A stretch of 64,000 nt of DNA from an uncultured Gemmatimonadaceae bacterium (GTDB taxonomy: Bacteria; Gemmatimonadota; Gemmatimonadetes; Gemmatimonadales; Gemmatimonadaceae). Positions 1-60,902 of the stretch are shown here, piece by piece. The DNA lies in contig CAWHHI010000004.1 of the NCBI GenBank assembly GCA_963829055.1, positions 288,001-352,000 on the forward strand, in the 5' to 3' direction. A model generated the notes under the pieces. The model was not told the origin of the DNA, did not search any database, and was given only the letters and a program-made list of their open reading frames with translations. Numbering within the stretch: position 1 is the first letter of the stretch; each line of letters starts with the position of its first letter. Made by a program: the position numbers and the translations under genes.

Positions 1-775
1 CCATGGAGCACAACCGGATGTACACGTCGCAAAACGCGACCGAGAAGAGGCTCATCCACGCGAACCGCATGTGCCGCTTGTTGAGCGCCGTGCAGCCGGC
101 GTAGAGACGTTGACGTACCGGTCGCCCCGCGAGACGGTCGAGGTAGCCGCCGATCACGTGCCGGAAGGAGTGGCAGCCTAACGTGTAGCTCGAGAGCAGC
201 ACCACGTTCACAGCGAGCAGAATCGTCCCGAGCCCGATGCCGAAGTGCCTCTGGCCGGTGGTCGGATCAATGAACCACATCGCCTTCCAGACATCCCACG
301 CGAGCAGGAAGAGGAACACGACCGCGACGTACAGGAAGTAGCGGTGGACGTTCTGGATGATCAGCGGGAACGAGCTCTCGCCGCGGTACGACTTGCGCGG
401 CTCGCCCACTGAACATGACGGCGGATCCGCCCAGAACGCCTTGTAGTACGCGCCCCGGTAGTAGTAGCACGTGAAGCGAAACAGTCCGGGAAATGGCAGG
501 ATCAGCAAGGCGGGCGAGAATGGAGCCCAGCCCGGCCACCAGCCCGGCTTCGGACCGAACCACGCGTGCGGCGAGTCGCCGAACAGTTCCGGCGCGTAAA
601 ACGGCGAGAGGTACGGGCCGTACGTGTAATGCCCATTCTGAAACGCGGCCCATGTTGCGTAGACCACGAACGACGACAGGATCACGAAGACGACCACCGG
701 TTGAACCCACCACGCGTCGCGGCGAGCGGTCTCGCCAAAGCCACGCTGGATTACCGGCAGCTGCGCATGCGCCAT
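1..775 (-). CDS. Succinate dehydrogenase membrane anchor subunit, Rv0249c/SdhF type (runs off window edge)
   Basis: Not in ORF track (no stop in window). Manual translation from ATG at 775 (AGGGAGAG just upstream): MAHAQLPVIQRGFGETARRDAWWVQP...YLSPFYAP...FRFTCYYYRGAYYKAFWADPPSCSVGEP...FPLIIQNVHRYF...YTLGCHSFRH...LNKRHMRFAWMSL, motifs typical of this family. Confidence 0.75.
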   Translation of the reverse strand, partial: MAHAQLPVIQRGFGETARRDAWWVQPVVVFVILSSFVVYATWAAFQNGHYTYGPYLSPFYAPELFGDSPHAWFGPKPGWWPGWAPFSPALLILPFPGLFRFTCYYYRGAYYKAFWADPPSCSVGEPRKSYRGESSFPLIIQNVHRYFLYVAVVFLFLLAWDVWKAMWFIDPTTGQRHFGIGLGTILLAVNVVLLSSYTLGCHSFRHVIGGYLDRLAGRPVRQRLYAGCTALNKRHMRFAWMSLFSVAFCDVYIRLCSM

Positions 776-948
776 CAGACTCTCCCTGATCGAGCTCACG
801 AACTCGGCGGCTGCACCGCCCGGACGCGCGGCGCCCTGCCGCGCGTTCCGCGCATATTCACGCTCTCACCGCAACGGCTGTCAATGGCCGTCGTGGACTC
901 GTTCCGGGGCTGTGAAAGGCGAAGAAAAGTCAGGATGTACGGGTTGGG

Positions 949-1270
949 CCCGAGGGTATCCGGCATCGCGACCCACACCCACGGTTTCAGTACCGAGGGG
1001 TCAGTCGGGAGGTGTCATTCCGAGCGGAGCCGCGAAGCGGCGCAGTCGAGGAATCGCGATCGTCCCGGTAGAGAGCCGTCTACGAGCGGGAGTCTCGATT
1101 CCTCGACTCGCGGCCCTTCGCTCGCTCGGAATGACACGGCTTCGCGGCTCCGCTCGGAATGACGGCTTGGCGCCAAGCCCGCGGATACGCGGACTGAAAA
1201 TTGATGACTATGACTGAGCACTGACCCACTTGGAACCGGCCATGCCGCCGCCGGATGGCCGTGCCTCTGG
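949..1270. repeat. Left arm of long imperfect inverted repeat (partner 1844-2088), interrupted by a REP-like hairpin
   Basis: 962-973 GGCATCGCGACC is the reverse complement of 2064-2075; 989-999 of 2036-2046; 1181-1199 matches reverse complement of 1911-1929 at 18/19 nt. Confidence 0.8.
1012..1163. repeat. REP/MITE-like palindromic element, GTCATTCCGAG subfamily
   Basis: GTGTCATTCCGAGCG (1012) pairs with CGCTCGGAATGACAC (ends 1137); inner GTCGAGGAATCG/CGATTCCTCGAC stem; duplicated right end to 1163; inverted near-copy at 37990-38137. Confidence 0.85.
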
Positions 1271-1366
1271 CGCTTTGGCGTCCACGCTGGAGATTGGGCG
1301 CGAGCCACGAGGCCCGGATTGTGCGGCGACGCGACTCGCGGAACCCTCACGTTGGAGAACAGATCA

Positions 1367-1799
1367 ATGCGTGGGCGAAACTCCCTGGCGTTAGGTGTCG
1401 CCGTCGCCCTGGCGATGGGGTGTGCAGCGTCGAAGACGGCGACGCCGTCTACCGATCCAGAGGTGATCACGGCCGACCAGATCGCGCGGTCGAAGGCGAC
1501 CAACGCCTATGACGTCATCGCCACGATCCGCCCGCAGAATGTTCACCGCCCACGGTGCCCCGACGACGCGCGGTCAGCAAGCACCCACACCGGGCCGTCA
1601 GACGGCTCCGGTGGTGGTGTACATTGACAATGTGAGGGTCGGCGCCGTGCAGGAGCTCAAGGCGTTAGGCAAGATCGACGTGCGTGAGATCCGCTACCTG
1701 AGCCCTCGCGTCGCGACTGACCGGTGGGGAGAGAACCATGCCGGCGGGGTCATCTACGTGACGACCCTCCAGGCGGGTGGGCCAGATACGACGAATTAG
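1367..1799 (+). CDS. Lipoprotein with stand-alone TonB-receptor plug-like domain (one frame break near 1537)
   Basis: Signal with lipobox-like LAMGC, then EVITADQI...NAYDVIATIRP in one frame and PVVVYIDNVRVG...IDVREIRYLSPRVATDRWGENHAGGVIYVTT in the next. Confidence 0.7.
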
Positions 1800-2088: not shown

Positions 2089-2136
2089 GAATTTACAGGA
2101 TCTTACGACTGCGACAGCAGCTCGACTCGAAACACG

Positions 2137-3636
2137 TTAGGCCATCGCCGCCAGTCGTCGGGCGTCCCACCGCGCCATCTCGTCGCAGGCATCGCAGTTC
2201 CCGCACTCCCAGTCCGGCGCGAACTCCTCCCCGAAGTACTCGAGGATGTAGCGCGTGCGACAGTTCGCCGTCTGACAGAAGGCGATGATCGACCGGAGCT
2301 TCGACTGATCACGCGCCCGGCGTTCCTCGTAGTCCATGAGGTCCGCGCTCAGGTCGCACGCCACGAGATTGTTGCGCAGTCGCTCCCACCGACCGCCCCG
2401 ATGCTCGCGCACCAGGCCGTGCCGCTTGAGCAGCACCATCACGATGCGCGCCTTGCGATGCGGCACCCCTGACTGGTTCGCGAGATCATCGACGTGCACC
2501 GGCGTCTCGAGCGGCATCGCCTCGAGCACGAGCGCGACACGCGCCGCCTCTTCGACCTCCGGATACTTGCCGCCGAGGAAGTACGACTGGATGCGACGGT
2601 CCTCGACGCGGTAGAGCACCGTGCACACCGCCGGCAATCCGTCTCGGCCGGCACGTCCCGCCTCCTGATAGTACGACTCGACCGAGCCCGGGAAGTGGTA
2701 GTGCACGACGAAGCGAAGGTCCTGCTTGTCGATGCCTAACCCGAACGCGTTCGTCGCGATCATTGCCTTGAGGTCGCCGGCCATGAAGCGATCCTGCGTG
2801 CTGCGACGATCGGCAGCCGGCATCTTTCCGTGATAGAGCCCGATGCGATAGTCGTGACGCAGCTCTTCGTAGAGCCGCTCCGCTTCTCGAATCGTCGCGA
2901 GGTAGATGACGCCCGATCCCTCGGTCTCATCGAGAATGCGATGGAGCGCTTCATCCTTCACCGCATTGTTCACCGCGCGCACGACCTCGAAGCGCAGGTT
3001 CGGTCGCGCGAAGCCCGTCACCGTGATGTACGGATCGCGCATGCCGAGCTGCCGCGCGATGTCCGCACGAACTTCTTCCGTCGCCGTCGCCGTGAGCGCC
3101 AGAATCGGCGGCCGTCCGAGCCGCTGCGCGATGGAGCCCAGCGTTAGGAAATCAGGTCGGAAGTCGTGCCCCCACTGACTCACGCAGTGCGCTTCGTCGA
3201 TGACGAACAGGCTCACCGTCCGCGTCAGCAGTCGCTCGAAGAAGTCGCGGTCCTTGAAGCGCTCGGGCGTGACGTAGAGGATCGAGCCTTCTCCGTCCTC
3301 GATCTGTCTGTGCGTCTCGCGCGTCGCTGGTCCGGACAAATGCGAGTGCATGGCCATCGCGTCGACGCCCACCGCGCTCAACTTGTCCTGTTGATCCTTC
3401 ATCAGGGCGATCAACGGGCTCACGACGACCGTGAGCCCCGGTAGCATCAGCGCTGGCAGTTGGTAGATGAGGGATTTGCCGCTGCCGGTCGGCATGACGA
3501 CCACCGCGTCGCGCCCGTCGAGCAGCGCTTCCATCGGCTCCCACTGGCCGGGCTGGAACTCAGCGTGCCCGAAACGCTGCGTGAGGATCTCACGCGCGCG
3601 TCGCAGGGACGCGTGCTTTGTAGCATGCTTCGACAT
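2137..3636 (-). CDS. recQ: RecQ-family ATP-dependent DNA helicase
   Basis: Intact 499 aa [47 protein letters not shown]-terminal Zn motif CR...CGNCDAC; no HRDC domain seen. Confidence 0.95.
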
Positions 3637-3775
3637 AACGCTTGGTCGGTGGCACTTTCCGTTCCGCGCGTAACCCGCCCGCCTTTGTAGTCGAGCTCCC
3701 TCGCATTCGATACCAACTGGCGCCCCCTTTGCATTGCCTGCGTGCTCTCGAACGTTCTCGCTCGGAGGCTAAAGC

Positions 3776-3994: not shown

Positions 3995-3997
3995 GCC

Positions 3998-5741: not shown

Positions 5742-6666
5742 ATGCTCATCAAGAAACCCGACGATCTGCGATCGTCCGAGATCACGCCGGAGAACCTCTA
5801 CTACGATCGCCGCGAGTTCCTGCGCGCCGCCGGACTGCTCGGCATTGCGGCAGCGACCCTTGGTGCCGTCGAGTCGGCTCAATGCCGCCACGCAGAACGG
5901 GCAGGAAAAGGACGAGCTCACGCCGTTCGAAGACGTGACGACGTACAACAACTTCTACGAGTTCGGCACCGACAAGAGCGATCCGGCCGAGAACGCGAAG
6001 GGGTTCAAGACGAAGCCGTGGACCGTGAAGGTCGAAGGGCTGGTGAGCAAGCCCGCATCGTACAGCATCGAGGACTTCATCAAGCCGTCGAAGCTGCGAG
6101 GAGCGCGTCTATCGGCATCGCTGCGTCGAGGCATGGTCCATGGTGATCCCGTGGCAGGGCTTCCCGATGTCGGATCTCATCAACCGCGTGCAGCCGCTGT
6201 CGTCGGCGCAAGTTCATCGAGTTCCAGACGCTGAACGATCCGCAGCAGATGCCTGGGCAGCGGTCGCCAGTCCTGCCGTGGCCGTACACGGAAGGGTTGC
6301 GGCTCGACGAGGCAATGCATCCGCTCGCGATCTTCGCGGTCGGGACTCTACGGCAAGACGCTGTTGCCGCAGAACGGCGCGCCGCTCCGCACGGTGATTC
6401 CGTGGAAGTACGGATTCAAGGCGACGAAGTCGATCGTGCGCATCCGGTTCACGGACAAGCAGCCGCGCACGGCGTGGAATCAGGCGACGCCTAACGAGTA
6501 CGGGTTCTACGCCAACGTGAACCCCGAAGTCGATCACCCGCGCTGGAGTCAGGCCAAGGAGCGGCGCATCGGCGAGTTCCGGAAGCGTCCGACGCTCATG
6601 TTCAACGGATACGCCGATCAGGTGGGCCGACTCTACCAGGGGCTGGACCTCCGCAAGAACTATTGA
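5742..6666 (+). CDS. msrP: Protein-methionine-sulfoxide reductase catalytic subunit MsrP (frame breaks)
   Basis: [27 protein letters not shown] (Tat), [68 protein letters not shown]. Confidence 0.95.
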
Positions 6667-11201: not shown

Positions 11202-11314
11202 CTCTGATTGTTCAATGCTGCTCGTGCATCTATGTCGTTCGGCGTCTTGCCGATCCCGTTAGGGATCGAAGGCGCGTTGGTTAGAGCCCGGCTCGAATGA
11301 TCGGTCCGGGTGAA

Positions 11315-11858: not shown

Positions 11859-12373
11859 GGTCGGATTCTCAGTTCTATCCGCCCGATCGGGCGGCGTTAG
11901 GTCGATGTGGTCGGTCGGCGTTCGAAGCGTGCGAGTTTTTCTTTCGGCGTCTCGCTTGCGCCGTTTGACGAAGGGAAGGATACGAAGCCCGATCACCCGG
12001 GAATCAACGCCGTGTGTGTCGAGTTGCCTGCGTTGTAAGTCGCTATTGGATAGTGCTTTGATCGAGGATGCCGATGTCGGATCACTGCCGATCGCTGGTC
12101 GAGCCGCGGTCGAATCACTTTCAGGTGATCGGCTACGCTGTCCTGCTCGCGCTTCGTCATTCGCGATTTTTCCCAAACGGCTGAATGAGGAACGGCACCC
12201 TGCGCATGATCCGGACAACGGCGAGACCGATGGAACGATCGTTCAAAGCCTTCGCGGGATGCCATTGGCCGAAAGGCACGTCGCAAGGATCTCGACTTCG
12301 TAGATGCCGGTCAGGTACTCATCGCGCGGAACGGCAACCAGACCGGACAGCCGTGATCGGTATCACGAAAGAC

Positions 12374-13477: not shown

Positions 13478-14511
13478 GTGGGGCGAGCTTGTCGTCGGAG
13501 CGCGGACAGCATGCCGTGATTACCGGCACCGGGTCGTACGTCCCGGCGCGCGTCCTCACGAACGCGGACCTCGCGGCGATGCTCCGCGTCGAGATCGAGC
13601 CGTTCGTATCGGAAACGCTCGGCATCCACGAGCGACACGTATGCGCCGACGACGAGTCCACGGCCGACCTGGCGGAGCGCGCAGCGAAACGAGCGCTCGA
13701 CGATGCGGGCCTCGAGCCGAATGAGATCGACCTGCTGATCGTCACGACGGACACGCCCGAGTTCATCTCGCCCGCGACGTCGTCGGTGGTCCACGGGCGA
13801 CTCGGGACGACGCGCGCCGGCACGTTCGACGTGAACGCTGGATGCGCCGGGTACGTCACCGCACTCGACATCGCGTCCAAGTACATCCGCGCCGACGATC
13901 GATACGATCGCGTGCTCGTCGTCGGAGCGTACGCGATGTCGAAGTACCTCGACTACACCGACAAGAAAACGGCGACGATCTTCGCTGACGGTGCTGGCGC
14001 GACGGTGATCGAGCGCCGCAATGCGCCGGGCGTGCTCGCCTCGGAGCTGTTTGCTGACGGACGACTGGCTTGCGGCATGGGCGTCTTCGCTGGTGGAACG
14101 GCCGAGCCGATCACGGAGGCGGTGCTGCGTGAGGGGTACCGCAATCATCTCCGCTTCGTCGAGAAGTATCCAAAGGAAGTGAACGAGGAAGGGTGGCCGC
14201 GGATCGCGCGCTCGGTGCTCTCACGCATCGGGCGAGGTGTCGAAGACGTTAGGCTGTGGCTGTGGACGCAGGTGAACCTTTCCACGATCCGCCTGGTCAT
14301 GGGTGCGCTCGGCGTTCCGATGTCTCGCGCGCACACGGTGATGGGGAAGTGGGGGTACACGGGTGCCGCGTGTCTCCCGATGGCGCTCGATGACGCCGTG
14401 CGGGCCGGGCGTCTCAGCGACGGCGATCTGGTGATGTTCACCGGCTCTGGTGCCGGTCTCGCGATGGGCTGTGTGGCGGTGGAGTGGCGGAGCGAGGCCG
14501 GACGCCAGTGA
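13474..14511 (+). CDS. Ketoacyl-ACP synthase III (FabH)-like protein with altered catalytic triad
   Basis: GTG overlapping lacI stop; ITGTGSYVP, FDVNAGCAGY, IFADGAGA, FTGSGAGL; WTQVN and GYTGAA sit where canonical FabH has HQAN and GNTSAA. Confidence 0.88.
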   Translation: MSGASLSSERGQHAVITGTGSYVPARVLTNADLAAMLRVEIEPFVSETLGIHERHVCADDESTADLAERAAKRALDDAGLEPNEIDLLIVTTDTPEFISPATSSVVHGRLGTTRAGTFDVNAGCAGYVTALDIASKYIRADDRYDRVLVVGAYAMSKYLDYTDKKTATIFADGAGATVIERRNAPGVLASELFADGRLACGMGVFAGGTAEPITEAVLREGYRNHLRFVEKYPKEVNEEGWPRIARSVLSRIGRGVEDVRLWLWTQVNLSTIRLVMGALGVPMSRAHTVMGKWGYTGAACLPMALDDAVRAGRLSDGDLVMFTGSGAGLAMGCVAVEWRSEAGRQ

Positions 14512-16341
14512 CGGTGCCGTTGCGGGAAGTGCAGGAAATGCACGACACGATGCTCGCGACGTTCCTCTCGCGCGTACGTGCGACTCCCGACCGCGTCGCG
14601 CTCGAGGAGTTGGCGGCGGGTGGAGCGCCCGCGGACCTGTCGCTCACGTGGACGCAGTGGCGCGAGGCATCTCGCTCGTTCGCGGCCGCACTCATTGCGG
14701 ATGGAGTCCAGCGTGGCGATCGCGTAGCGATCCTCGCCGGCAATCGCGCGCTCTGGCCGATTGCCGACATCGGTATCCTCATGGCCGGCGCGATCAGCGC
14801 CGGCGTCTATCCGACGAGCGCTCCGGCGCAGATCCGCGAGTTGCTCAGCGATTGCGGTGCCGTTGCCATCGTCGTCGACACCGCGGATCAACTGCAGAAG
14901 GTGACGTCGGTCGCGCACGAGCTGCCGTCACTGCGCCGGATCGTGGCTGCGGAGCTGGAGGCGTCATCGGGGATCGTCCGTCGGTGGCGCGACTACCTCG
15001 GACAGGGAGCGTCGGCGCTTGCCTCATCCGCCGAGATCGGGGCCGAGATCGACGCGCGATCTCGCGACACGACGCCTGACGACATCGCGCTGCTGATCTA
15101 CACATCGGGATCGACCGGCGAGCCGAAGGGCGCACGGATTCCGCACCGCTACCTGTCGGCATCGGCGGCGTCGGTGCGTGACACGTTAGGCCTCACCGAC
15201 GACGACACGGCATTGTCGTTCCTGCCGTATTGCCACGCGGGCGAGCGCGTGTTCGGCCTCTACACGCGTATCCTGTGTGGCATGCGGACGGGGCACGTAC
15301 TGGAGCACGCCCGGCTCTGGGATGCCGCTCGCGCATTCGAGCCGACGATCTTCGGGGGCCTCCCACGGTTCTTCGAGAAGATCTTCGAAGCGCTCGTCGT
15401 GCACGAGGGCACACTCGGCGCACGCGCCCGTCGTGAATGGCAACGGGCGCTCGCGCTCGGGCGCGAGCGATTCGTGTTTCGTCGGAGCGGTAGCGCGGTG
15501 CCGAGCGAGCTGGAGGAGCAGTGGCGCGAGGCGAGTGCACCCTGCGCAATGGTAGTGGCGAGTCTCCTCGGGACCCGTGTGCGGCTGGCGACGTCCGGTG
15601 GCGCGACACTCCCTCAGGAAGTCGCCGACTATCTCGATGCGGTCGGCCTCTCGGTGCTCGGTGCCTACGGGCAGACCGAGCACCTGTGCGTCGCGTTCCA
15701 CCGTCCGAATTGCTACGACACCGAGACGGTCGGGCCGCCGATGCCCGGCACCGAGATCCGCATCGACTCGGATGGTGAGGTGCTCCTCCGGCGGGGCCCA
15801 CTCACGTTCGCGGGCTACCACGACAAGCCGCTCGAGTCACGCAGATGCGTTCACGGCTGATGGCGAGTGGCTTCACACCGGCGACCTCGGCGAGCTCACG
15901 ACCGGAGGCCGGCTGCGCCTAACGGGGCGAAAGAAGGAGCTCATCGCGCTTTCGAGCGGGAAGAAGATCGCGCCGCTCCCGATCGAATCCCGCCTGATCG
16001 AGGATCCATGGATCGGTCACGCGATGCTGTACGGCGAGGGGCAGCGGTTCGTCTCCGCGTTGCTGGTGCCGCGGCGACCGGTGCTCGAAGCGTGGCAGCG
16101 CGAGCAGGGGTTGCAACTCGCGTACGACGAGCTCCTCGGGCACCCGGACGTTGTGACACGGGTGCAGCAGGCGGTGGACCGCGTGAACTCCGTCCTATCC
16201 GGGCCCGAGCGCATCAAGCGGTTCGTGCTACTCGATCGTGAGCTGTCGGTCGAAGCCGACGAGCTGACGCCCACCATGAAGATCCGCCGCGCTGTCGTCA
16301 CGGAGCGCTATCGCGATCGACTCGAACCCCTCTACCGGTGA
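14508..16341 (+). CDS. Long-chain acyl-CoA synthetase (AMP-forming; one frame break near 15845)
   Basis: IYTSGSTGEPKGA, SFLPYCH, AYGQTE, GEWLHTGDLG, TGRKKELI..SSGKKIAP, ELTPTMKIRR. Confidence 0.92.
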
Positions 16342-26578: not shown

Positions 26579-32257
<5,679 letters not shown>

Positions 32258-43930: not shown

Positions 43931-45593
43931 CTCACGCTGGAACGCGCTCACGACCAGTCCGACGATCACCACCGTCACCGCGCCGATCACGTTGTGCCAG
44001 AGGAACGCGACCTCCGGCGGCCGAACGTTCACCGCGCCAACCACCGAGATGCCCGCGATGCAGCCCGATGAACGCGCCCGTGCGCACGTGACCCTCGGAA
44101 TCATCGCCAGCAGGAAGACGCCGAGGATCGAGCCGTAGAAGAACGAGCCGAACCGGTTCACGACCTCGATCAGCGAGCCGAGGCTCACCGCGTACGATCG
44201 CGATGATGCACGCGAAGACGCCCCAGATCACCGTCGCGATCTTCGACGCCCGGACATACGCGGCGTCCGGCGCGTTAGGCCGCAACCACCGGCGGTAGAA
44301 GTCGATCACCGACGCCGTCGCCAGCGAGTTGAGCTCGCCGGCCACCGCCGACATTGCGGCCGCCATCACCGCCGCGATGAAGATCCCCGTCAGACCCACG
44401 GGCAAGGTCGAACAGCACGAAGTGCGGGATGATGTAGTTCACATCCCTCGACGACTCGCCGGTCACGCGCGCCGCCAGCGCCAGCGCCTCCGTGCGCACG
44501 TCCTCGACGCGTTTCTCGGCCGATGCGGAACGCTGTCGCGCGTGGCCGACGTCTTCGCGCGCGGCGATCGCCACGTGCGGCCGCGTCACGTTGCGCGAGT
44601 GCGGCGCCGTATTGCGTCGCCAGCGCCTGGTACTGCCGCCGGCTGCGCCTCCCGCACGCGACGGTCGTGTGTCGGGTTGAACAGCATCGGCGGCGGCTGG
44701 AACAGGTAGATACACGAACACCAGCACGCCGACGAGCAGCACTCCGGCCTGAAGCGGGATCTTCCAGTACGCGCTGATGAGCAGCGAGCTTCGCGCCTCG
44801 TCCACGGACTTCGCCGTGAGGAACCGCTGCACCTGGCTCTGATCGGTGCCGAAGTACGACAGCATCAGGAACGTGCCGCCAATGAGCCCCGACCAGAACG
44901 TGTACGTGCTGCGTGATGTCGAACGAGAAGTCGAACACCCGCAGCCGCCCGACAGCGCCGGCGACGTGGAGCGCCTGCGTCGGGGCTCACGGGCAACTTG
45001 AACAGCACCACCGCGATCACGGCCGCGATCGCGGTCACGACGAGCACCATCTGCTTGACGTCGGCCCACGTGACCGCCTGTACGCCGCCGACGATCGTGT
45101 AGATCACGGTTGGGATTCCCATGATTGCGACCGACCAGCCCGACCGGCCAGCCGAAGATCGATGAGAACACGACCGCGGGCGCGGCGAGAATCGTCCCGC
45201 ACGACATCCCGCGCGAGAGCAGAAACAGGAATGCGGTGAGCGAGCGGGTCTTCGCGTCGAACCGGCGCTCGAGGAATTCATAGGCCGTGAACACGCGCGC
45301 GCCGTGCAGGAACGGCACGAGCGTCACGCCGAGGATCACCATGGCGAGCGGCAGTCCGAAATAGAACTGGACGAACCGCAGCCCGTCCGTCGCGCCCTGG
45401 CCCGGTCGTCCCGATCATCGTGATCGGCCGAGAGCTGGGTCGCCATCACCGAGAGCCCGACTGCCCACCACGGAAGGCTCCGGTTGGCGAGCAGGTAGCC
45501 CTCGATCTCGGTGGAGCGCTTCGTTCGGCGGATGCCGTCAATCCCCACGTACGCGAGGTAGACGACGAGGATCGCCCAGTCGAGAGAGTGCAC
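43908..45593 (-). CDS. Sodium:solute symporter (frame breaks; 3' end approximate)
   Basis: [68 protein letters not shown]...[13 protein letters not shown]. Confidence 0.9.
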
Positions 45594-48183: not shown

Positions 48184-49568
48184 CTACGCCGTCGCCGGCG
48201 GACTAACGAACTGCTCGAGCCCCACGCCCAGCATTAGCGTCGCCAGCACGACAGCGGCCGACGTGAAGAACGGAACGCCCGTGCCGAGGTGATCGTAGGC
48301 GAAGCCCGCCCACAGCGGCGCGATGATGCGCGCGACACCGCCGAACGTCTGCTGCACGCCCATGTACAATCCTCGCTCGCGCGGTGGAGATCACCCGCGA
48401 GAGCAGCGCCGTCACGCACGGGAACGTGAACGCGGTGCCGAGCGGGATGAACGCGACGGCGAGCGCCAGCACCGGCAGCGATCGCGCGAGCGGCATCCCG
48501 CCCAGTCCGATCGCCAGCAGCACCACACCGAATCCGCGACAGGCGCGCCTCGCCGAATCGATCGACCGCCTTGCCGAGCAGCAGCACTCGCGTGAACACG
48601 GAGATCGATCCGATGTACATGAAGAAGTAGCTGATCGTCTGCTCGGTCACCTGGTAGCGATCCGCGAGAAACAGCGCGAGCACCGCGGTCACACCCTGAA
48701 ACGCGCCCATGGCGATCGCGTAGATCCAGATGAGCCGCGACGCGGGCTCGCCGGAATGCTCGAGCACTCGCAGCACGGCCTCGCGCGACGAGCGCGGCTT
48801 CTGCGGCGTCGGATGCTGCGCCTCGCTCACCGCGGCGCGACTCGCGCAGGTAGTGCCACGCGAACGCCATGTTCACGAGGCAGAGCAGCGCCGCGAGCAG
48901 ACCGGGCATCGCGTGACCCACCGCGTGCAGCCCCGCAACGTCACCGCCGCCCAGGTTGCACACCTTGTTGCCTAACGTGATGGAAAAGGCGCCGAGCACC
49001 GGGCCGAACGCGACGCCGAGGTTCGTGGCGGCGGAGAGCCAGCCGAGCCCGCGCGCGCGCTGATCGGGCTCCACCGAGTCCGCGACGTACGCCTGGATCA
49101 CGCCGACCGTGCCGCCGCCCGCGCCCTGGACGATGCGCGAGATGAACAGCATCGCCAGCGAGTTGGCGAAGCCGAAGATCACGTACGCGATCGCCGACGC
49201 GCCGAGCGCGACGAGCAGGGCGGGGCGTCGCCCGAATCGATCCGAGAACCGCCCCCACACCGGCGCGCTCACGAGCTGCGCGACCGTGAACGTCGACACG
49301 AGCAGCGCGACCACGGATGCCGATACCGAAATGCACGCGCGCCGATGTTGAACCCTTCGCCGCCCAACCTGCGCGCGTAGAACGGAAGGATCGGCACGAC
49401 GATCAGCAGCCCGACCATGTCGAGGAATGCCGTCGCCATCAGCACCATGAGCTTCGCCGGAATCTTCCGAAGCTCGCGGCCCAGTGTGTACAGGAGTCCC
49501 ACCGCGAGCGCGCCGAGAACGATGCGCACGGCGGGGTGCTCGAGTGATGTCGCGATGTCGAGGACCAT
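48184..49568 (-). CDS. MFS transporter, TetA/DHA1-like (frame breaks)
   Basis: FLDMVGLLIVVPILPFY, WGRFSDRFGRRPAL, QAYVADS, FGPVLG, GVQQTFGGVARIIAP. Confidence 0.9.
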
Positions 49569-51756: not shown

Positions 51757-53399
51757 GCGGCGGTTCCGCTCGCGCCGGTCATGTAGGGTCCGAGGACTTC
51801 CGCGCTCGCGTCGCTGGCCGGGCAGCGTCACGACCATGCGGCCGCCGTACATGACGGTCACGCGATCGGAGAGCGCCAGAATCTCCACGAGGTCCGCAGA
51901 CACGAGCAGAATCGCCTTCCCCTCGGCCCGCGCGCGCCGCAGTTGGTCGTGAATGAACTCGATTGCGCCGACGTCCACGCCGCGCGTCGGCTGCGCCGCG
52001 ATCAACACCGTGAAGTCGCGCCCCATCTCGCGGGCGATGACGATCTTCTGCTGATTGCCGCCCGACAGCGCGCGCGACGGCAACGACTCGTCAGGCGGCC
52101 GGATGTCGAACGTCTGGATGCGACTCGCCGCGTTCGCGGCGATGCGCGCGTGATCGAGCACGCTGGCGCCGCCCGTGAACCGATGCTGTTGACCGAGGAT
52201 GAGATTGTCCGCCACCGAGTACTCGAGGACGAGCCCGCGGCGGTGGCGATCTTCGGGGATGTGCGAGAGCCCCGCGTCGGCGCGGCGCGCGCACGTCGCG
52301 CGTCGGTGATGTCGTGCTGCGTGCCGACCGAGGTCGACGATGCTGATGGTGCCCGACGCCGGCGCGCGAAGTCCGGTGATGGCTTCGATCAGCTCGGTCT
52401 GTCCGTTGCCCTCGACGCCGGCGATGCCGAGGATCTCGCCGCGCGCGATCGGTGAACGAGACGTTGTCTACCTCGTTAGGCTTGCGGCGGGAGGCGACGG
52501 TAAGGTTTGAAACGCCTGAGAGCGGGAACCGGGAACCGGGAAGCGGGAAGCGGGGCTGCTCGCAGCCCGCTGCTTGCAGCTCCGTCCCGGCTTCCCGCTT
52601 CCCGCTTCCCGTTCCAACGGCGACACCATCGATCGCGAGAACGACATCTCGGCCCACCATCATCCGTGCGATCGATCGCGGCGTCGCGTCGGCCGTCCTC
52701 ATTCGTCCCACCGTTCGCCCCGCGCGCATCACCGTGATCGTCTCCGAGATCTCGATCACCTCGTCCAGCTTGTGCGTGATGAGGATGACCGTATCCGCCG
52801 TCGTCGCGGAGACGACGCAGCACCTTCCACAGCTCACTCACCTCCGGTGGCGACAGCACCGCCGTCGGCTCGTCGAGAATCGAGGATCTTCGCGCCGCGG
52901 TAGAGCGTCTTCAGAATCTCGACACGCTGCGCTTCGCCGACCGAGAGCTCCGAGACGAGCCGCGACGGGTCCACTCGCAAGCCCCGTGCGCTCGCTCAGC
53001 GCACGCACTTCGCGCTCGGCGGCGCTGAGATCGAGCGAGAGACCGCGTCGCAGCTCGCGGCCGAGGATCAGATTCTCCGCGACCGTGAGCGTGGGCACGA
53101 GCATGAAATGCTGGTGCACCATGCCGACGCCGGCGTCGATCGCTTCGCGCGTCGTCCAGCCCGTGACGTCGCGCAGGGCGCCGCCGGAGGTCGCGACTTC
53201 GACCGACGCCGCCGTCGGGCGGATACATGCCCGCGAGCACCCGCATGAGCGTCGACTTGCCGGCGCCGTTCTCGCCGACGAGCGCGTGAATCTCGCCCGA
53301 CGCGACCTCGAGGTCCGCGCCGGCGTTCGCGACGACCGGCCCGAATCGCTTGACGACGCCCGTCATCCGAACCGCGGTCGATCGGCTCATCGCGATCAT
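51753..53399 (-). CDS. Nucleoside/sugar (CUT2) ABC transporter ATP-binding protein, two NBDs (frame breaks)
   Basis: [64 protein letters not shown]. Confidence 0.92.
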
Positions 53400-55748: not shown

Positions 55749-55812
55749 TGAGACGTGGCTACGGGAAGTCGTTAGGTCAGCGAGCCGACGAGATTGGCGG
55801 CGGACGCGGGCT

Positions 55813-57141
55813 TCAGTGAACATGTCCCGCCGCCTCCGTCGGTGTCGACGGCGACGGAGCGTTAGGCATCGCGACGCCATACCGGCCCATGCGGTGTACC
55901 ATCCGGCCTGACCCCGAGTCGGACGCCGAGTGACACGCTCCAGATGGACGAGGCGCCGTAGAAATCCTGCGGGACGAACGCCGAGGGGCTGATCTCCTCG
56001 CGCGGACGCGCATACGCGACTTCCGCGAATGGCGCAATGTCGACGCCGCGGACGGGAATCGGTAGGCTGAACGCGGCCGAGGCAATCCGCCACCGCGTTA
56101 TGCCAATGATCGAGAGGTCGGTTGGCGACCGCGAGTATCGAAACGGATCGAGCAGTCGCTCTTCCTCCGGGCGCGTCGTGTTCTCGAACCGCACACTCAC
56201 GGTCGCCGTTCGTACGGCTGCCGTGCCTTCGGCGAGGAACGACGTGAAGTCATTCGTCTGGACGTCGCCGAACAGCTCGTACGTTCGCGCCCACTCCACG
56301 AGCGCGCCTCGCAGTGCGCCGCGGTCGCGCTCCAGCCGCGCACCGACACTCCATTTGCGCTGATCGAGTCCGTCACCCGACGCCAACTCCGGTGACGTCA
56401 CCGATGCGAAGCTCCCCTCGATCTCGATCCCGGCGCGGGCGCTGACCGTCCCGCGCGCCGCCCATGAGTCACCGAATCGACTGGCGTCGGGCGGCGCGCC
56501 GGGGCTCACCGGCTCGTCGCCGTTGAAGAACGCACCCTCGAGCATCACCCGCCCTCGGCGCACGGCGCCGATGGCCACGTACCGCTCGAGTATCTGCGCG
56601 AGGTGGTGATTCACCGGGTAGGCGGCGAACGGGCGCATCATGGGATCATCGGTGCCGAACGGGACAAAGCCCTTACCTCCAGCGACTGATACCCCGATTC
56701 CCCCAAAGGTCCCGCTCGCCGCGACGATCGCTTCGTGAAGGTACGTATGCGGATGACGGCGGTCCGCATAGCCTTCGCCGTACGTGCCAGCGTTGAGCTG
56801 ACCGCGGTCGAGGGTCAGGCCCTCGAAGTCCAGCGTGAGCACCCCGCTCGAGGTGCCCGGACATGACGCTCCCGTGCGCCATGATCACGGGTTGCGCGAG
56901 GTAGCCCTCGGTATACCGGCGGTTTTCTGGCCCCGGATCGAGCCGGGTCACCAGCCCAATCGCCTGAGCTCGAACGCTGCCGGTCGCTCGCGAGGAAGAG
57001 TCGGGGGCCTCCATACCGGCCATGGTCCCCATCTGCGCGCGCGCTGGGGCGACCGACGCTGCGATCGCGCACGTGGCCATTGTGGCGATGACCGTGGTCG
57101 CGACTCGAATGTACCACCCCCACCTAACGATCGCCGCTCAT
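55813..57141 (-). CDS. Hypothetical secreted/outer-membrane protein (frame breaks; start approximate)
   Basis: Signal ..APARAQ, MGTMAGM, YGEGYADRRHPHTYLHE, PFGTDDPMMRP, NHHLAQILER, alternating beta-strand patterns, ends HRMGRYG...GHVH. Confidence 0.65.
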
Positions 57142-57295: not shown

Positions 57296-57303
57296 ATGGC
57301 TGC

Positions 57304-57522: not shown

Positions 57523-57830
57523 GGGTTTCCTCTGCGAATTGGGTAGTGCAGGCAAGGTCACGAATCATGCCGCCCATACTGCGTACGACCATCGTGCCTC
57601 GGCGGCCGAGCTCGGCGCTGTTAATCTCGCGTTAGGGTTGGAACGTGAGTGAACGGTCCGGTCCGGCATCGTGTCCCCACAGTCGATCACTGCTGCGAGC
57701 GCCCTATCCCACAATCGTTGCTGCACTACGTCGCACCGTCTATCTGCTCGGTTCATCCGCGCCGATCAGGTGTGTTCGAGGTGTCCATGGGACGCTGAAC
57801 AATCGGCGCACGAACGAAGGAGGAGCCACG

Positions 57831-60800
57831 ATGAAGCGAACACTTCGTCGAATTCTCGTTGCTGCCGCCGCGCTGACCGCACCACTGGTCGCCGCAGGTG
57901 CGCAAGCGACCGGCACAATCACCGGCCGGGTTACCGACCGCGCGACGCAGGCAGCGCATTGGCGACGCGCAGGTACTGGTAGTCGGCACGACTCGCGGGG
58001 CGCGTACGAACGACGCTGGGCAGTACCGACTCCCCGGAGTCGCCGCCGGTCCAGGTGCGCATCCGTGTCCTCAGACTCGGCTACGAAGCCGAGACGCGCA
58101 CGGTTGACGTCAATGCCAACGGGACCGCTACCGCCGACTTCGCACTCGGTGCGACGGCGACGCGCCTCGATCAGGTCGTCGTCAGCGCGACGGGAGAATC
58201 GGAGGTCAGGCGCGAATCGGGCAACAACATCGCGACCATTAATACGGATTCCATTCCGAAGACGGTCGTGAACGGCGTGAGCGATCTGCTGTCATCGCGC
58301 GCCGCGAACGTCATCGTGACGCAGACGAGCGGCACGACGGGCGGTGGCTCGCGCATCCGTATCCGCGGGTCGAACAGCCTCTCGTTGTCGAACGAGCCAC
58401 TGATCATCATCGATGGCGTTCGCGCGATCAGCGACGTGTCCGGCTCGACGATCGACATCGGCGGTCAGAATCCGAGCCGCCTCGACGATCTGAATCCGGA
58501 AGACATCGATGACATCGAGATCATCAAGGGGCCCGCGGCGGCGGCGCTCTATGGTACGGCGGCCGCGAACGGCGTCGTGCAGATCACGACCAAGCGCGGC
58601 CGCTCCGGCAAGACCAAGTGGACCGGGTACGCCGACGGCGGAACCGTCCGTGAGTCACGGCGTTTCCCGCCAACTTCGGCAGCGTCGGCCTAACGCCGAG
58701 CGGGCGTCGTACGACGGGCTGCAGCATCTGACGCCGAGCTGTCCGGGCTCTGCACGCCGAAGGCGGACTCGCTGATCAGCTTCAATCCGCTCGAGCAGGC
58801 CGGCCCGTTCGTCAACGGGTGGCGCAACGAGTTCGGGGCCAGCGCGAGCGGCGGAAACGAGCAGACGCAGTTCTACCTCGGCGGCGACTTCGGCCGCGAG
58901 CAGGGCGTGTACCCCAACAACGAAGTGCGTCGCACGCGGCATCCGCGCCAACCTAACGAGCCAGCTCGGCCCCAAGCTCGATGTCGGCGTGCACGCCGGC
59001 TACAACCAGGCGCGGCTCAAGCTGCCGCAGAACGACAACAACGATCTGAGCCCGATCGCGAACGGCATCTTCGGGAGCGCCGAGGATGATCCGGACCTCC
59101 GCGGGAACCTGTTCTATCCCGGTGAGCGTGATCAACGCAGATCTACACGGCGCAGAACACCGATCGCATGACGTTCTCGGGCAACGGCAACTGGCGTCCG
59201 CTGCCGTGGCTGAGCGTCGTGGGTGTGACGGGCCTCGACTACGCTGGGCGCACTGACCTGCAGGTCATTCCAGCCGGGCTCATTCCCGAGCCGGATCGCC
59301 GCGCGATCGGGTAACGCGACTTCCAATCCGTACAGCTTCTGGACGTACACGGCCAACGTGAACGGGACGGCGTCCTACATGCTGGGTTCGATGCCGCGTC
59401 GACGTCCATCGGCACGCAGTACAACAAGGAGACGGTGAACGGAACGCAGGCAGCGGGTGAAGGCCTCGCTGCCGGATCGAGCTCGGTTGCAGGTACGACG
59501 TCCGGATTCGCCGCCACGCAGCAGAACAGCGACATCATCACGCTCGGCGGGTACCTGCAGCAAAAGCTGTCGTGGCGCGACCGCCTGTATCTCACCGCCG
59601 CGGTGCGTGGTGACGACAACAGCTCGTTCGGCCAGGACTTCAAGCTGGTGTACTATCCGTCGGCGAGCCTCTCGTGGGTGATCGGCGACGAGTCGTGGTT
59701 CCCGAAGATCAATGCCATCAGCTCGCTCCGGCTGCGCGGGTCGGTCGGCCAGTCGGGTCAGCGCCCCGGATTCCGGAACGCCGTGTCGTTCTACCAGGCC
59801 GTCGGCGTTAGGCGCGAAGTCGGCGACGTCGGCGCGCTGGAGCTCGGCGCGAACATCGGGAACAACGAGCTCAAGCCCGAGCTGTCCACGGAATACGAGG
59901 GCGGGCTCGACCTCGGCATTCTCAACAGCCGCGTCTCGCTCGAGCTGACGTACTACAACAAGTCCACGAAGGACGCGCTCATTCAGCGTCAGCTCGCGCC
60001 GTCGACCGGCGCGCAGACGCGCTTCGAGAACCTCGGCGAGGTCACGAACAAGGGCGTCGAAGGCACGCTCAACGCCGCCGTGCGTCGACGCCGACAACTT
60101 CAAGTGGAACGTGACGCTGAACGGGTCGGTCAACAGCAACCGCCTCGTCACGCTCGGCGCTGGCGTCGACACGATCTTCCTCGGACTCGGCGCCGTCGAC
60201 GGCAACGCCATTCAGCGATTCGTCGAAGGCCAGCCCACCGCCGGCTACTGGCAGCGTCCGCTGATCTCGTGGCAGGACAAGAACAACGACGGTGTGATCA
60301 GCCCGATCGGTTGTGGCCCGACGTCGGCCGACGACACGCGCGGACTGCGAAGTGCAGATCGGCGACAACGTCGCCTATCTCGGCAATCCGCTGCCGAAGC
60401 GTGAGGTTCACTCTGAACACGAACTTCACGCTGTTCAAGTACTTCCGGCGTCGGCGGCGTGGTCGATCATCGCGGCGGCTACACGCTGTACAACGCCACG
60501 GAGCAGTTCCGCTGCGTCACGTTCCAGACGTGCCAGGCCGCGTACGACAAGAAGGCGCCGCTGGACGATCAGGCGGCGCGCATCGCGTCGCTGCTGGGCA
60601 CGGACGCCGGCTACGTCGAGGATGCGTCGTTCGTGAAGCTGCGCGAAGTCGTCGCTGACGCTGCTCGCGCCTAACGACTGGGCGAAGCGCGTCGGCACGT
60701 CGAACCTCTCGCTCACGCTCGCCGGCCGCAACCTCGCGACGTGGACCGACTACAAGGGCTTCGACCCGGAGCTGAACTGGAACGGCAGCTCGAACTTCAG

Positions 60801-60867
60801 CACGGCCGATTTCCTCACGCAGCCGCCGGTTCGCTACTTCACGGCGCGCTTGTCGTTCGCCTGGTAA
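57831..60867 (+). CDS. SusC/RagA-family TonB-linked outer membrane protein (frame breaks)
   Basis: GAAGGAGG RBS; TGTITGRVTD, SGTTGGGSRIRIRGSNSL, PLIIIDGV, LNPEDIDDIEIIKGPAAAALYGTAAANGV, AVRGDDNSSFG, ELKPE, TDYKGFDPE; ends in aromatic W. Confidence 0.93.
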
Positions 60868-60902
60868 TCCTCGAATATCGAACCTAACGAGGATCGACAT
60901 AG

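What the first reader, a model, noticed from the sequence alone, without database searches (positions are those of the whole stretch)
177..60889. Highly iterated non-palindromic heptamer CGTTAGG/CCTAACG embedded across the window, including in coding DNA
Seen: 41 exact copies by manual scan (may be slightly incomplete). CGTTAGG on + (22): 1389, 1663, 2135, 3142, 10336, 11257, 11895, 14247, 15184, 17549, 17714, 18795, 23250, 24337, 33630, 41267, 44273, 52474, 55770, 55860, 57630, 59806. CCTAACG on + (19): 177, 6490, 15918, 20797, 21363, 22362, 27895, 30864, 34530, 38665, 40044, 43539, 43620, 48971, 57123, 58689, 58952, 60670, 60883. There are also 4 hexamer-only copies. A mononucleotide model at about 68% GC predicts about 7, and TA-containing words look depleted here, so true expectation is probably lower. 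The motif is read in different frames and imposes codons rare in GC-rich genomes: GCG TTA GGT (17714), TTC CTA ACG (recQ, 3142), GTT AGG (14247, 59806), CCT AAC (msrP, 6490), and the recQ TAA stop. Established: HIP1 and DNA-uptake sequences behave like this, whereas Chi and KOPS are strand-polarised, which this motif is not. Inference: a lineage-specific DNA-level signal (uptake, protein binding, modification/repair-driven or chromosome organisation). I know of no description of it.
Basis: partly seen in the sequence, partly recalled or inferred. Interest (0 to 1): 0.85.

Follow-up and report, generated by a model that had tools for sequence, protein, structure and literature searches.

The report
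Genome-wide self-tag word CGTTAGGC
One eight-letter DNA word, CGTTAGGC, is written about 5,000 times through this soil bacterium's genome against its own codon habits, much like the self-recognition tags that Neisseria and Haemophilus use when they take up DNA, but what reads the word is still unknown.

Summary
All 41 copies lie at the stated places (shuffles give 2.7, at most 9). Genome-wide the 7-mer occurs 6,391 times. The true core, CGTTAGGC, occurs 5,004 times against 131 expected, about 38-fold, and is the top word of the genome.

- **Not a by-product.** It is not codon usage, a longer repeat, a replication-polarised signal or a sequencing artefact.
- **Written at the DNA level.** It uses all four stop-free frames, holds 56% of all TTA codons and has changed the proteome.
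- **Spacing.** Copies avoid each other within about 250 bp whatever their orientation.
- **Distribution.** Dense in 37 of 121 family genomes, in 24 of 68 genera; avoided in the rest; no alternative dialect found.
- **Integron link.** The word equals the attC core of this order's integrons, but the integron integrase does not track it. Neither does RecC.
- **Phages.** Phage contigs carry it at host-like density.

Best reading (0.4): an uptake-sequence-like self tag. The main rival is a tag read inside the cell.

This scan already found the same word on other genomes. My paper searches turned up no description, but I saw only the top 10 titles of each word search.

The parts
177..183 (-). word copy (7-mer CGTTAGG on the named strand)
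1389..1395 (+). word copy
1663..1669 (+). word copy; relatives have CTC Leu codon here
2135..2141 (+). word copy
3142..3148 (+). word copy; 1 of 4 relatives keeps it, 3 have xGTCAGG
6490..6496 (-). word copy; relatives have CCG/CCA Pro codon
10336..10342 (+). word copy
11257..11263 (+). word copy
11895..11901 (+). word copy
14247..14253 (+). word copy
15184..15190 (+). word copy
15918..15924 (-). word copy
17549..17555 (+). word copy
17714..17720 (+). word copy
18795..18801 (+). word copy
20797..20803 (-). word copy
21363..21369 (-). word copy
22362..22368 (-). word copy
23250..23256 (+). word copy
24337..24343 (+). word copy
27895..27901 (-). word copy
30864..30870 (-). word copy
33630..33636 (+). 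word copy
34530..34536 (-). word copy
38665..38671 (-). word copy
40044..40050 (-). word copy
41267..41273 (+). word copy
43539..43545 (-). word copy
43620..43626 (-). word copy
44273..44279 (+). word copy
48971..48977 (-). word copy
52474..52480 (+). word copy
55770..55776 (+). word copy
55860..55866 (+). word copy
57123..57129 (-). word copy
57630..57636 (+). word copy
58689..58695 (-). word copy
58952..58958 (-). word copy
59806..59812 (+). word copy
60670..60676 (-). word copy
60883..60889 (-). word copy

Best explanation
CGTTAGGC (strict core GTTAGG, pyrimidine-preferring ends) is a genome-wide 'self' recognition word. A protein reads the whole word on double-stranded DNA, in either orientation.

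The most likely mechanism is the one known for the DNA uptake sequences of Neisseriaceae and Pasteurellaceae. The DNA-uptake machinery prefers fragments that carry the word. Word-bearing alleles are therefore imported and recombined more often. Over time this biased transmission (molecular drive, possibly helped by selection) writes the word about once per kb into genes and spacers, even at the price of rare codons and amino-acid changes.

Shown here: the abundance, the DNA-level nature, the lack of orientation dependence, the short-range interference, the turnover of positions, the avoidance of the word in relatives without it, and the presence of uptake genes.

Inferred, not shown: that uptake is the step at which the word is read.
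For: - **Density and enrichment.** 5,004 copies, 0.64 per kb, 38-fold over an order-1 model. Every other top 7- or 8-mer is a sub- or super-word of it.
- **No conserved flanks.** So it is not part of a longer repeat.
- **Strand balance.** 2,547 forward and 2,457 reverse. No link to GC skew: r = 0.05 over 372 bins. Neighbouring copies share orientation in 3,293 of 6,371 cases. Sense 2,185 against antisense 2,066 in called genes.
- **All four stop-free frames are used.** 56% of TTA codons lie in the word. 60% of P-N-[VADEG] and 27% of [SPTA]-L-G tripeptides are spelled with it. These tripeptides are themselves in excess: 2,077 against about 1,055-1,233, and 6,029 against about 4,800-5,000. A coevolution paper reports that uptake sequences shape proteomes (PMC2817400; start of abstract seen in a listing only).
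- **Denser outside called genes.** 1.22 per kb against 0.70 per kb.
- **Short-range interference, both orientations.** The pair density ratio is 0.22 below 25 bp, 0.32 at 50-100 bp, 0.55 at 150-200 bp, 0.82 at 250-300 bp and about 1 beyond 500 bp. Gene-wise counts fit a Poisson distribution. This fits the published result that two USS within 100 bp do not raise uptake, and that even spacing is an expected consequence of the drive (PMC7811141, passages read).
- **Steep mismatch profile.** Observed/expected drops from 16.9 at zero mismatches to 1.10 at one and 0.87 at two. A steep drop of this kind is described for DUS and USS (PMC1939737, passages read).
- **Positions turn over.** 13 of 32 are conserved within the genus against 22.8% for other 7-mers. 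5 of 40 and 8 of 40 are shared with two other word-rich genera, and 0 of 31 and 0 of 30 with two word-poor genera.
- **Uptake genes in G000.** ComEC, a small ComEA-like HHH_3 open reading frame, DprA and secretins, plus three type IV pilin open reading frames.
- **ComEC across the family.** All 44 genomes with at least 0.03 copies per kb have ComEC. The 7 of 121 without a ComEC match are all word-poor.
- **Negative control inside the assembly.** 125 kb of probably foreign or chimeric DNA holds 0 copies.
Against: - **No uptake bias has been measured, and no receptor is known.**
- **The uptake machinery does not discriminate.** PilQ-like secretins are in 120 of 121 genomes and ComEC in 114 of 121, word-poor genomes included.
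- **No dialects.** Unlike DUS and USS, two word-poor genomes have no hyper-abundant word at all, and three word-rich genera share the identical word.
- **Patchy distribution, even within one genus.** 0.974 against 0.013 copies per kb in g49. This suggests a mobile or easily lost reader.
- **Phage DNA carries the word at host-like or higher density.** A 17-kb fragment with head, portal and terminase genes has 31 copies. A 44-kb genome rated 98% complete has 29 copies against 3 for the control word, and no integrase was found in the 54 of 56 open reading frames scanned. An uptake drive should not act on a non-temperate phage, although lysogeny is not excluded.
- **One-mismatch forms.** Those at the six inner positions are not enriched. 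Four sit at the low baseline of TTAG-containing words (0.2-0.4); position 4 ranges 0.6-1.5 and position 3 ranges 0.7-2.4, with CGTCAGGC at 2.4.
- **No excess of close inverted pairs** of the terminator kind typical of DUS.
- **The identity with the integron attC core is unexplained by this reading**.
Confidence: 0.4

Rival explanations
1. An intracellular protective or recombination tag, Chi-like in logic but read in either orientation. A nuclease, helicase or defence or repair system inside the cell, possibly mobile, spares or processes differently any DNA that carries the word. The chromosome, and phages that want to pass as 'self', are therefore selected to carry it about once per kb.
For: - Phage contigs carry the word at 0.66 to 1.83 per kb, against 0 to 3 copies of the control word.
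- Presence is patchy across 68 genera and differs even within one genus, with an identical word everywhere. This fits a transferable reader of fixed specificity.
- Word-poor relatives avoid the word 5- to 20-fold relative to its reversed control.
- Spacing is even, and the probably foreign DNA holds no copies.
Against: - There is no replication-strand skew, whereas the skew of Chi is a recalled textbook feature.
- Interference between copies is at least as strong for opposite as for same orientation. A direction-dependent reader would not produce this.
- RecC was found in only 14 of 121 genomes, not in G000, and does not track the word: 4 of 37 word-rich against 10 of 77 word-poor.
- AddB: no alpha-type match and only a 35-bit match to the Gram-positive type in G000, which is 86% complete.
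- From recall, the enrichment and the proteome cost are far above those of any known Chi.
Confidence: 0.25
2. The word is a binding site of an abundant nucleoid-associated or chromosome-organising protein. Each bound site covers about 200-300 bp, and phages replicating in the same cell use the same protein.
For: - Interference is independent of orientation, with a length scale of about 250 bp.
- Strands are balanced, and the word occurs in genes and spacers alike.
- Phages also carry it.
Against: - From recall, no known nucleoid protein needs thousands of exact 8-bp sites written against codon usage.
- A protein this central should not be gained and lost within a genus.
- No candidate gene was found.
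Confidence: 0.1
3. The word is read by the integron integrase or a relative. Each solitary copy is a duplex R-box half-site (an attI- or attG-like secondary site), and the chromosome has accumulated such sites through, or for, cassette recombination.
For: - In an integron array of a same-order genome (G015:C95), the attC sites read GCCTAAC ... GTTAGGC about 85-95 bp apart, preceded by C. The word is therefore exactly their R'' and R' core.
- G000 itself has an intI gene and attC-like sites.
- The pyrimidine preference at the last position fits the GTTRRRY consensus, which is recalled and not from a call.
Against: - IntI (E <= 1e-60) is found in 23 of 37 word-rich, 4 of 7 intermediate and 48 of 77 word-poor genomes. 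That is 62% in both main classes.
- Solitary words have no attC partner. Divergent pairs at 60-150 bp number 41, against 38 convergent pairs.
- The base before the word is C in most attC sites but is the least used base (13%) genome-wide.
- Most copies lie inside genes, where a cassette insertion would be harmful.
Confidence: 0.08
4. The word is written by a sequence-specific repair or methylation-linked bias, of the very-short-patch type proposed for HIP1, and no whole-word reader exists.
For: HIP1-type words have been linked to methyltransferases (recalled, not read here). The distribution is patchy, as for restriction-modification genes.
Against: - A T:G-to-C:G repair can only convert one-off variants. 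It would deplete the T variants, yet TGTTAGGC (10-fold) and CGTTAGGT (13-fold) are the most enriched variants.
- Creating the word often needs two changes, for example CTC to TTA, and amino-acid changes.
- The word is not palindromic.
Confidence: 0.04
5. Chance, codon usage, a hidden longer repeat or a long-read basecalling artefact.
For: The assembly carries many 1-bp indels relative to independent contigs.
Against: - Shuffle and Markov nulls.
- No conserved flanks.
- The same word is abundant in six other assemblies of the genus, of 260 to 1,170 contigs each.
- Contigs of four independent runs cover word sites.
Confidence: 0.01

Closest known systems
DNA uptake sequences: DUS of Neisseriaceae and USS of Pasteurellaceae
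   Same: - A short non-palindromic word at about one per kb.
- Both strands equally, inside genes in every open frame, and denser in spacers.
- It reshapes peptides.
- Observed/expected drops steeply from the perfect to the one-mismatch form.
- There is no benefit from two close copies, and spacing is even.
- Core uptake genes are present.
(PMC7811141 and PMC1939737, passages read)
   Different: - Uptake bias and receptor are untested.
- No dialects: one identical word in many genera, and none in the others.
- Presence is patchy even within a genus.
- No terminator-like inverted pairs.
- Phage genomes carry it.
- The word equals the integron attC core.
Chi (RecBCD/AddAB) and KOPS (FtsK) polar words
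   Same: An over-represented 8-mer that marks resident DNA. Phages could gain by mimicry.
   Different: - No replication or strand polarity.
- Interference does not depend on orientation.
- RecC was not found in G000 and does not track the word.
- From recall, the enrichment is much higher than for Chi.
HIP1 of cyanobacteria
   Same: A hyper-abundant octamer imposed on coding DNA, with an unknown reader and a clade-restricted distribution.
   Different: HIP1 is a palindrome linked to a methyltransferase (recalled). This word is asymmetric, and its variant spectrum argues against a repair-type writer.
Integron attC/attI core site (R box, GTTRRRY)
   Same: Letter-for-letter identity with the R' and R'' boxes of attC sites in integron arrays of the same order, and of attC-like sites in G000.
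   Different: Solitary copies lack the attC hairpin partner, are not next to intI, lie mostly inside genes and do not track IntI.

Membership tests
DUS/USS (DNA uptake sequences) | Short word hyper-abundant at about one per kb genome-wide | tested here: met
   5,004 copies in 7.78 Mb, 38-fold over an order-1 model
DUS/USS (DNA uptake sequences) | Equal on both strands, no replication polarity | tested here: met
   2,547 against 2,457; r = 0.05 with GC skew
DUS/USS (DNA uptake sequences) | Written into coding DNA in several frames, with an effect on the proteome | tested here: met
DUS/USS (DNA uptake sequences) | Competent cells preferentially take up DNA that carries the word | not testable with these tools
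   Needs an uptake or transformation assay in a cultured word-rich strain
DUS/USS (DNA uptake sequences) | A dedicated receptor (ComP-type minor pilin in Neisseria) | not tested
   Only three generic type IV pilin open reading frames were seen by a motif search. No specificity can be read from them.
DUS/USS (DNA uptake sequences) | DNA uptake machinery encoded | tested here: met
   ComEC, a ComEA-like HHH_3 open reading frame, DprA and secretin in G000. These are also present in word-poor relatives.
DUS/USS (DNA uptake sequences) | Related lineages carry altered dialects or types of the word | tested here: not met
   Two word-poor genomes have no hyper-abundant word in 200 kb each. Three word-rich genera have the identical word.
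DUS/USS (DNA uptake sequences) | Graded over-representation of mismatched forms | tested here: inconclusive
   Load 1 as a whole is at 1.1 to 1.5. Enriched variants are mainly at the two end positions, plus CGTTATGC at 4.4 and CGTCAGGC at 2.4.
Chi | Orientation bias with replication direction | tested here: not met
Chi | RecBCD or AddAB reader present | tested here: inconclusive
   RecC not found in G000. No alpha-type AddB, and a weak 35-bit match to the Gram-positive type. The genome is 86% complete.
KOPS / FtsK-orienting sequences | Strong skew that flips at origin and terminus | tested here: not met
   On contig C16 the GC skew flips near 550 kb, while word orientation stays 201/159 before and 246/248 after.
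HIP1 | Palindromic word | tested here: not met
   CGTTAGGC is not its own reverse complement, which is GCCTAACG.
Integron attC site | R''-L''...L'-R' imperfect inverted repeat of about 60-130 bp | tested here: not met
   No excess of GCCTAAC...GTTAGG pairs at 60-150 bp (41 against 38). No conserved flanks.
Integron attC site | Core R box GTTRRRY / RYYYAAC | tested here: met
   Identical to the attC ends in G015:C95. The consensus itself is recalled.
Integron attC site | Depends on or co-occurs with IntI | tested here: not met
   IntI in 62% of word-rich and 62% of word-poor genomes
REP/MITE dispersed repeat | Conserved sequence or hairpin beyond the core | tested here: not met
   Information content is 0.16 bits or less outside positions 0 to 7, apart from position 8.

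The most novel reading that the evidence does not exclude
Cells that prefer GTTAGGC-bearing DNA would preferentially import, or otherwise handle, gene cassettes. Each attC offers the word twice, once in each orientation.

Transformation delivers single strands, from which chromosomal integrons recruit cassettes efficiently (PMC12614218, abstract and passages read). The genome-wide copies would then be the by-product of that preference through molecular drive.

This would explain three things: why many genera share one identical word; why earlier notes of this scan report the same word in a second phylum (not tested here); and why the word has no dialects.
Probability: 0.12. Interest if true: 0.9.

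Novelty: new variant of a known kind. Interest (0 to 1): 0.72.

Why it matters
Sequence-biased self tags of this strength are established in only two bacterial families, recalled as Neisseriaceae and Pasteurellaceae. A third, unrelated soil lineage would show that the phenomenon is more general. This lineage has a word at the same density, clear on/off contrasts between sister species and a link to the integron recombination core.

And it would make an old question testable: do such words arise by uptake drive or by selection? The word is also a practical marker for binning, for spotting chimeric contigs and for assigning phages to hosts.

Tried and rejected
- **Strand polarity in other genera.** The listing showed runs of '+' copies only for G056, G109 and G078. 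I fetched 400 kb and counted 36/24, 35/52 and 16/19 forward/reverse. The runs came from a cut listing, not from polarity.
- **Dense same-strand copies in word-poor genomes** (G015:C95, C80, C43; G013:C3; G017:C113). For G015:C95 I read the sites and they are integron cassette arrays, not the genome-wide signal. I fetched G013:C3, G015:C80 and G017:C113 but did not inspect them, and G015:C43 was not fetched.
- **IntI, RecC, PilQ and ComEC as genes that track the word**. None tracks it. ComEC is merely never missing in word-rich genomes.
- **Word deserts as genomic islands**. They encode housekeeping genes. These are second copies, 46-59% identical at the protein level to the main copies, and the tetranucleotide make-up deviates (L1 distance 0.18-0.31 against 0.078 +/- 0.021). 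They are probably chimeric or foreign DNA in the assembly. That makes them a useful negative control, not biology of the word.
- **One copy per gene.** Rejected: per-gene counts fit a Poisson distribution.
- **Prophage in G000.** A terminase profile gave only one 20-bit match, so no own prophage could be compared.
- **Phage G135 as a prophage.** Only a segment of about 500 bp matched, in 5 of 121 family genomes, and only 2 candidates per genome were scored. Neither its host nor its lifestyle is settled.
- **Literature.** Searches for the phylum name with 'DNA uptake sequence' gave 0 papers. Searches for the 8-mer in both orientations gave 223 and 280 papers. I saw only the top 10 titles of each, all primers or unrelated.
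- **My gene calls are crude.** They cover 77.6% of the genome because the assembly has frameshifts. Coding versus non-coding figures are therefore approximate.
- **Sequencing runs.** All runs found are kept as contigs. They show presence, not variant frequencies or base modification.

Full report
**1. The observation**

One search finds 41 exact copies of CGTTAGG/CCTAACG in the window, 22 on + and 19 on -, at exactly the listed places. Dinucleotide-preserving shuffles give 2.68 +/- 1.65, at most 9, and 0 of 100 reach 41.

The window is G000:C4:288001-352000 of a 7,784,024-base assembly in 20 contigs at about 66.7% G+C. Every contig carries the word at 0.64 to 1.09 per kb, for 6,391 copies in all.

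Observed/expected is 7.2, 18.1, 25.7 and 8.9 under Markov orders 0 to 3. It falls to 1.34 and 1.04 at orders 4 and 5 only because the sub-words hardly exist outside the motif: 72% of all TTAG tetramers lie inside it.

A logo of all copies shows no conserved flank. Position +8 is C in 78% and T in 13% of copies. Position -1 prefers G or T. The unit is therefore CGTTAGGC: 5,004 copies against 131 expected at order 1, which is 38-fold, and 49-fold at order 2. All other top 7- and 8-mers of the genome are pieces of it. Control words are not enriched: CGTTAGC 0.34, GGTAACG 1.09 and the reversed word 0.81.

**2. A DNA-level signal, not a coding effect**

My own crude gene calls cover 77.6% of the genome. 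Coverage is low because the assembly has frameshifts (see section 7). In these calls the word sits in all four frames that avoid its TAG or TAA stop:

| Frame | Copies |
|---|---|
| xCG TTA GGx | 1,622 |
| xxC GTT AGG | 544 |
| CCT AAC Gxx | 1,240 |
| xxC CTA ACG | 802 |

That is 2,185 in sense and 2,066 in antisense orientation. Of 2,927 TTA codons, 1,626 lie in the word.

Shuffling synonymous codons genome-wide keeps proteins and codon usage unchanged. It gives 279 copies in genes against 4,234 observed, and 109 against 3,342 for the 8-mer.

60% of P-N-[VADEG] tripeptides and 27% of [SPTA]-L-G tripeptides are spelled with the word. These tripeptides are themselves about 1,000 copies each in excess. 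The word has therefore changed amino acids, not only codons. Copies are spread evenly along genes. They are 1.7 times denser outside called genes.

**3. Not polarised, and copies avoid each other**

- Orientation does not follow GC skew: r = 0.05 over 372 bins.
- Neighbouring copies share orientation in 51.7% of cases.
- Across the skew switch on contig C16, orientation barely changes (all).

Copies avoid each other at short range. Against a null that keeps 20-kb density, the pair density ratio rises with distance (raw spacings):

| Distance | Ratio |
|---|---|
| below 25 bp | 0.22 |
| 50-100 bp | 0.32 |
| 150-200 bp | 0.55 |
| 250-300 bp | 0.82 |
| beyond 500 bp | about 1 |

The deficit holds for same and opposite orientation alike. 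Counts per gene fit a Poisson distribution, so this is not a rule of one copy per gene.

An orientation-independent interference length of about 250 bp points to a reader that binds duplex DNA in either orientation and gains nothing from a second nearby site. Published work on Haemophilus says the same: two USS within 100 bp do not raise uptake, and even spacing is an expected outcome (PMC7811141, passages read).

**4. Variants**

Only four one-off forms are clearly enriched: TGTTAGGC (10-fold), CGTTAGGT (13-fold), CGTTAGGG (5-fold) and CGTTATGC (4.4-fold); CGTCAGGC is weakly so (2.4-fold). Changes at four of the six inner positions sit at the 0.2-0.4 baseline of TTAG-bearing words; positions 3 and 4 range 0.6-2.4.

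By mismatch load, observed/expected is 16.9, 1.10 and 0.87 for 0, 1 and 2 mismatches. DUS and USS also show a steep first drop (PMC1939737, passages read).

A very-short-patch type of repair writer would deplete the T variants. It also cannot build a whole octamer, so I rate that reading low.

**5. Distribution among relatives**

In 21 relatives the 8-mer counts are as follows:

| Genomes | 8-mer copies | Reversed control word |
|---|---|---|
| All seven assemblies of the genus | 2,501 to 5,112 | about 250-370 |
| G010 | 605 | 237 |
| The other 13 | 65 or fewer | higher than the word in each |

In the other 13 the count is often far below the control, so the word is avoided there.

I then sampled 121 genomes in 68 genera of the family. 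The sample includes the unpublished genomes G021, G043 and G089, all word-poor. These three enter only the tallies.

- 37 genomes, in 24 genera, have at least 0.1 copies per kb, up to 1.33.
- 7 genomes are intermediate.
- 77 genomes are below 0.03 per kb.
- Genera are mostly uniform, but g49 holds 0.974 and 0.013 per kb.

Two word-poor genomes have no hyper-abundant word of any kind in 200 kb each. Two other word-rich genera have the same word as their top word. The pattern is therefore presence or absence, not dialects.

Positions turn over:

- Within the genus, 13 of 32 aligned copies are kept, against 22.8% of other 7-mers in the same alignments. The lost ones often show the common synonymous codon, such as CTC for TTA or CCG for CCT.
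- Across genera, 5 of 40 and 8 of 40 positions are shared with word-rich genomes.
- 0 of 31 and 0 of 30 are shared with word-poor genomes.

**6. Candidate readers**

G000 encodes ComEC, a small ComEA-like open reading frame, DprA and secretins, plus three type IV pilins found by motif.

| Candidate | Result across the 121 genomes | Tracks the word? |
|---|---|---|
| PilQ-like secretin | 120 of 121, all just under the curated cut-off | No |
| ComEC | 114 of 121; the 7 without it are all word-poor, in 4 genera | Necessary at most, not sufficient |
| RecC | 14 of 121; not in G000; 4 of 37 word-rich and 10 of 77 word-poor | No |
| AddB (G000 only) | No alpha-type match; one 35-bit match to the Gram-positive type | Not assessed |
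| Integron integrase | 23 of 37 word-rich, 4 of 7 intermediate, 48 of 77 word-poor (also 26) | No |

*The integron link.* Dense same-strand copies in a word-poor genome (G015:C95) are integron cassette arrays. Their attC sites read GCCTAAC ... GTTAGGC. The word is therefore letter for letter the attC core of this order's integrons. G000 has its own intI gene and attC-like sites.

Solitary words have no attC partner. They also prefer a different preceding base. The identity is too specific to dismiss. By my own arithmetic, a random octamer contains GTTAGGC in either orientation with a chance of about 2 in 10,000. It remains unexplained.

**7. Artefact and controls**

Twenty soil or rhizosphere runs from 14 studies hold parts of the window. 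Contigs of four of them cover word sites at about 99% identity. None of the 40 differences shown falls in a copy, but 588 more were not shown.

The same comparison shows recurrent 1-bp differences, for example at 4642, 6749 and 9684. These suggest indel errors in this assembly.

Three large word-free stretches exist: C6:5440-55038, C11:1-44055 and C6:591808-623330. They carry second copies of normally single-copy genes (FtsK, chorismate synthase, FolD) at 46-59% protein identity to the main copies. Their tetranucleotide make-up also deviates. They look like chimeric or foreign DNA and serve as an internal negative control with 0 copies in 125 kb.

**8. Phages**

A scan of viral contigs for two copies 400-430 bp apart returned 119 stretches, of which 80 were fetched. 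Many of the fetched stretches with several copies carry them on one strand only; I take these for cassette arrays but did not inspect them. Some are real phages with copies on both strands:

| Record | Size and status | Content | 8-mer copies |
|---|---|---|---|
| G133 | 17 kb fragment | Major head, scaffold, portal and terminase genes | 31 |
| G135 | 44 kb, rated 98% complete | RecT, replication initiator, terminase, portal; no integrase in 54 of 56 open reading frames scanned | 29, against 3 for the control word |
| G136 | Provirus | Not examined | 18 |

G135 was not found integrated in the 121 genomes, but that search scored only two candidates per genome.

Phage DNA with host-like density is the strongest point against a pure uptake drive, unless these phages are temperate.

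**9. Reading**

The evidence excludes chance, codon bias, a longer repeat, an artefact and a polar Chi- or KOPS-type signal, and argues against a repair-type writer. What remains is a word read as a whole by a protein, and kept by biased transmission or by selection.

- I put 0.4 on the uptake-sequence mechanism. In its favour are the anatomy, the interference that ignores orientation, the effect on the proteome, and ComEC never missing where the word is rich.
- I put 0.25 on an intracellular self tag. In its favour are the phages and the patchy on/off distribution with one fixed word.
- The rest goes on nucleoid binding, an integrase-linked reading and others.

Membership in the DUS/USS family cannot be claimed. 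Its defining feature, biased uptake, is untested, and the dialect feature is not met.

**10. Earlier work**

This scan has already reported the same word on other genomes: at least 25 findings in at least 6 genomes. Those notes read it the same way. They also pointed me to the integron and phage leads, which I re-tested here.

In the literature I found no description. That rests on the searches only, and for the two word searches I saw just the top 10 titles. Supplements were not consulted.

Noticed in passing
window 1011-1165: A hairpin repeat of about 130 bp, MITE- or REP-like. It has about 370 copies in G000, 182 on + and 188 on -, with median identity 78%. A 160-nt stretch folds at -104.9 kcal/mol. 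Many further copies occur in G003 and G004, and metagenome depth spikes here. It carries the genome's other over-represented words (TCATTCCGA, AGTCGAGGAA and others) but not the CGTTAGGC word.
   Followed up: partly
G000:C20:190000-208958 (outside the window): An integron. The intI match lies at C20:208041-208958 on the - strand, at 265.7 bits, just over the cut-off. attC-like sites (GCCTAAC ... GTTAGGY or GTTAGCC, about 85-100 bp) lie on its 3' side. A short inverted GTTAGGC/GCCTAAC pair sits at 207951-207978.
   Followed up: partly
G000:C6:5440-55038, C6:591808-623330, C11:1-44055 (outside the window): Word-free stretches of 31 to 50 kb at contig ends. They hold second, 46-59% identical copies of single-copy housekeeping genes and have a deviant tetranucleotide make-up. 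They are probably chimeric joins or contamination in the assembly.
   Followed up: yes
window 4642, 4758, 5881, 6098, 6208, 6749, 9684, 9717, 9911, 10157: Contigs of three or four independent runs lack one letter at these places. Together with split genes elsewhere, such as chorismate synthase in two open reading frames, this suggests single-base insertion errors (frameshifts) in this assembly.
   Followed up: no
G000:C4:2862-3170 (outside the window): An isolated N-terminal fragment of an integron-integrase-like gene (105 bits, model positions 2-104). A similar fragment occurs in G002.
   Followed up: no
L098, L121, L122/L123, L142 (IMG/VR contigs): Viral-labelled contigs of 30-64% G+C with 7 to 14 copies of the 8-mer, all on one strand. 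They are probably integron cassette arrays from various taxa filed as viral.
   Followed up: no
whole genome: CTTAGGA/TCCTAAG occurs 71 times against 4.8 expected under the maximal-order model. TTAA (756 copies) and CTAG (3,962 copies) are very rare.
   Followed up: no
G078:C1:1-200000 and phage G135: In a 72.8% G+C word-rich relative the word points with the gene in 49 of 68 genic copies. In phage G135, 23 of 34 copies lie on the strand that carries nearly all genes. G000 shows no such bias.
   Followed up: no
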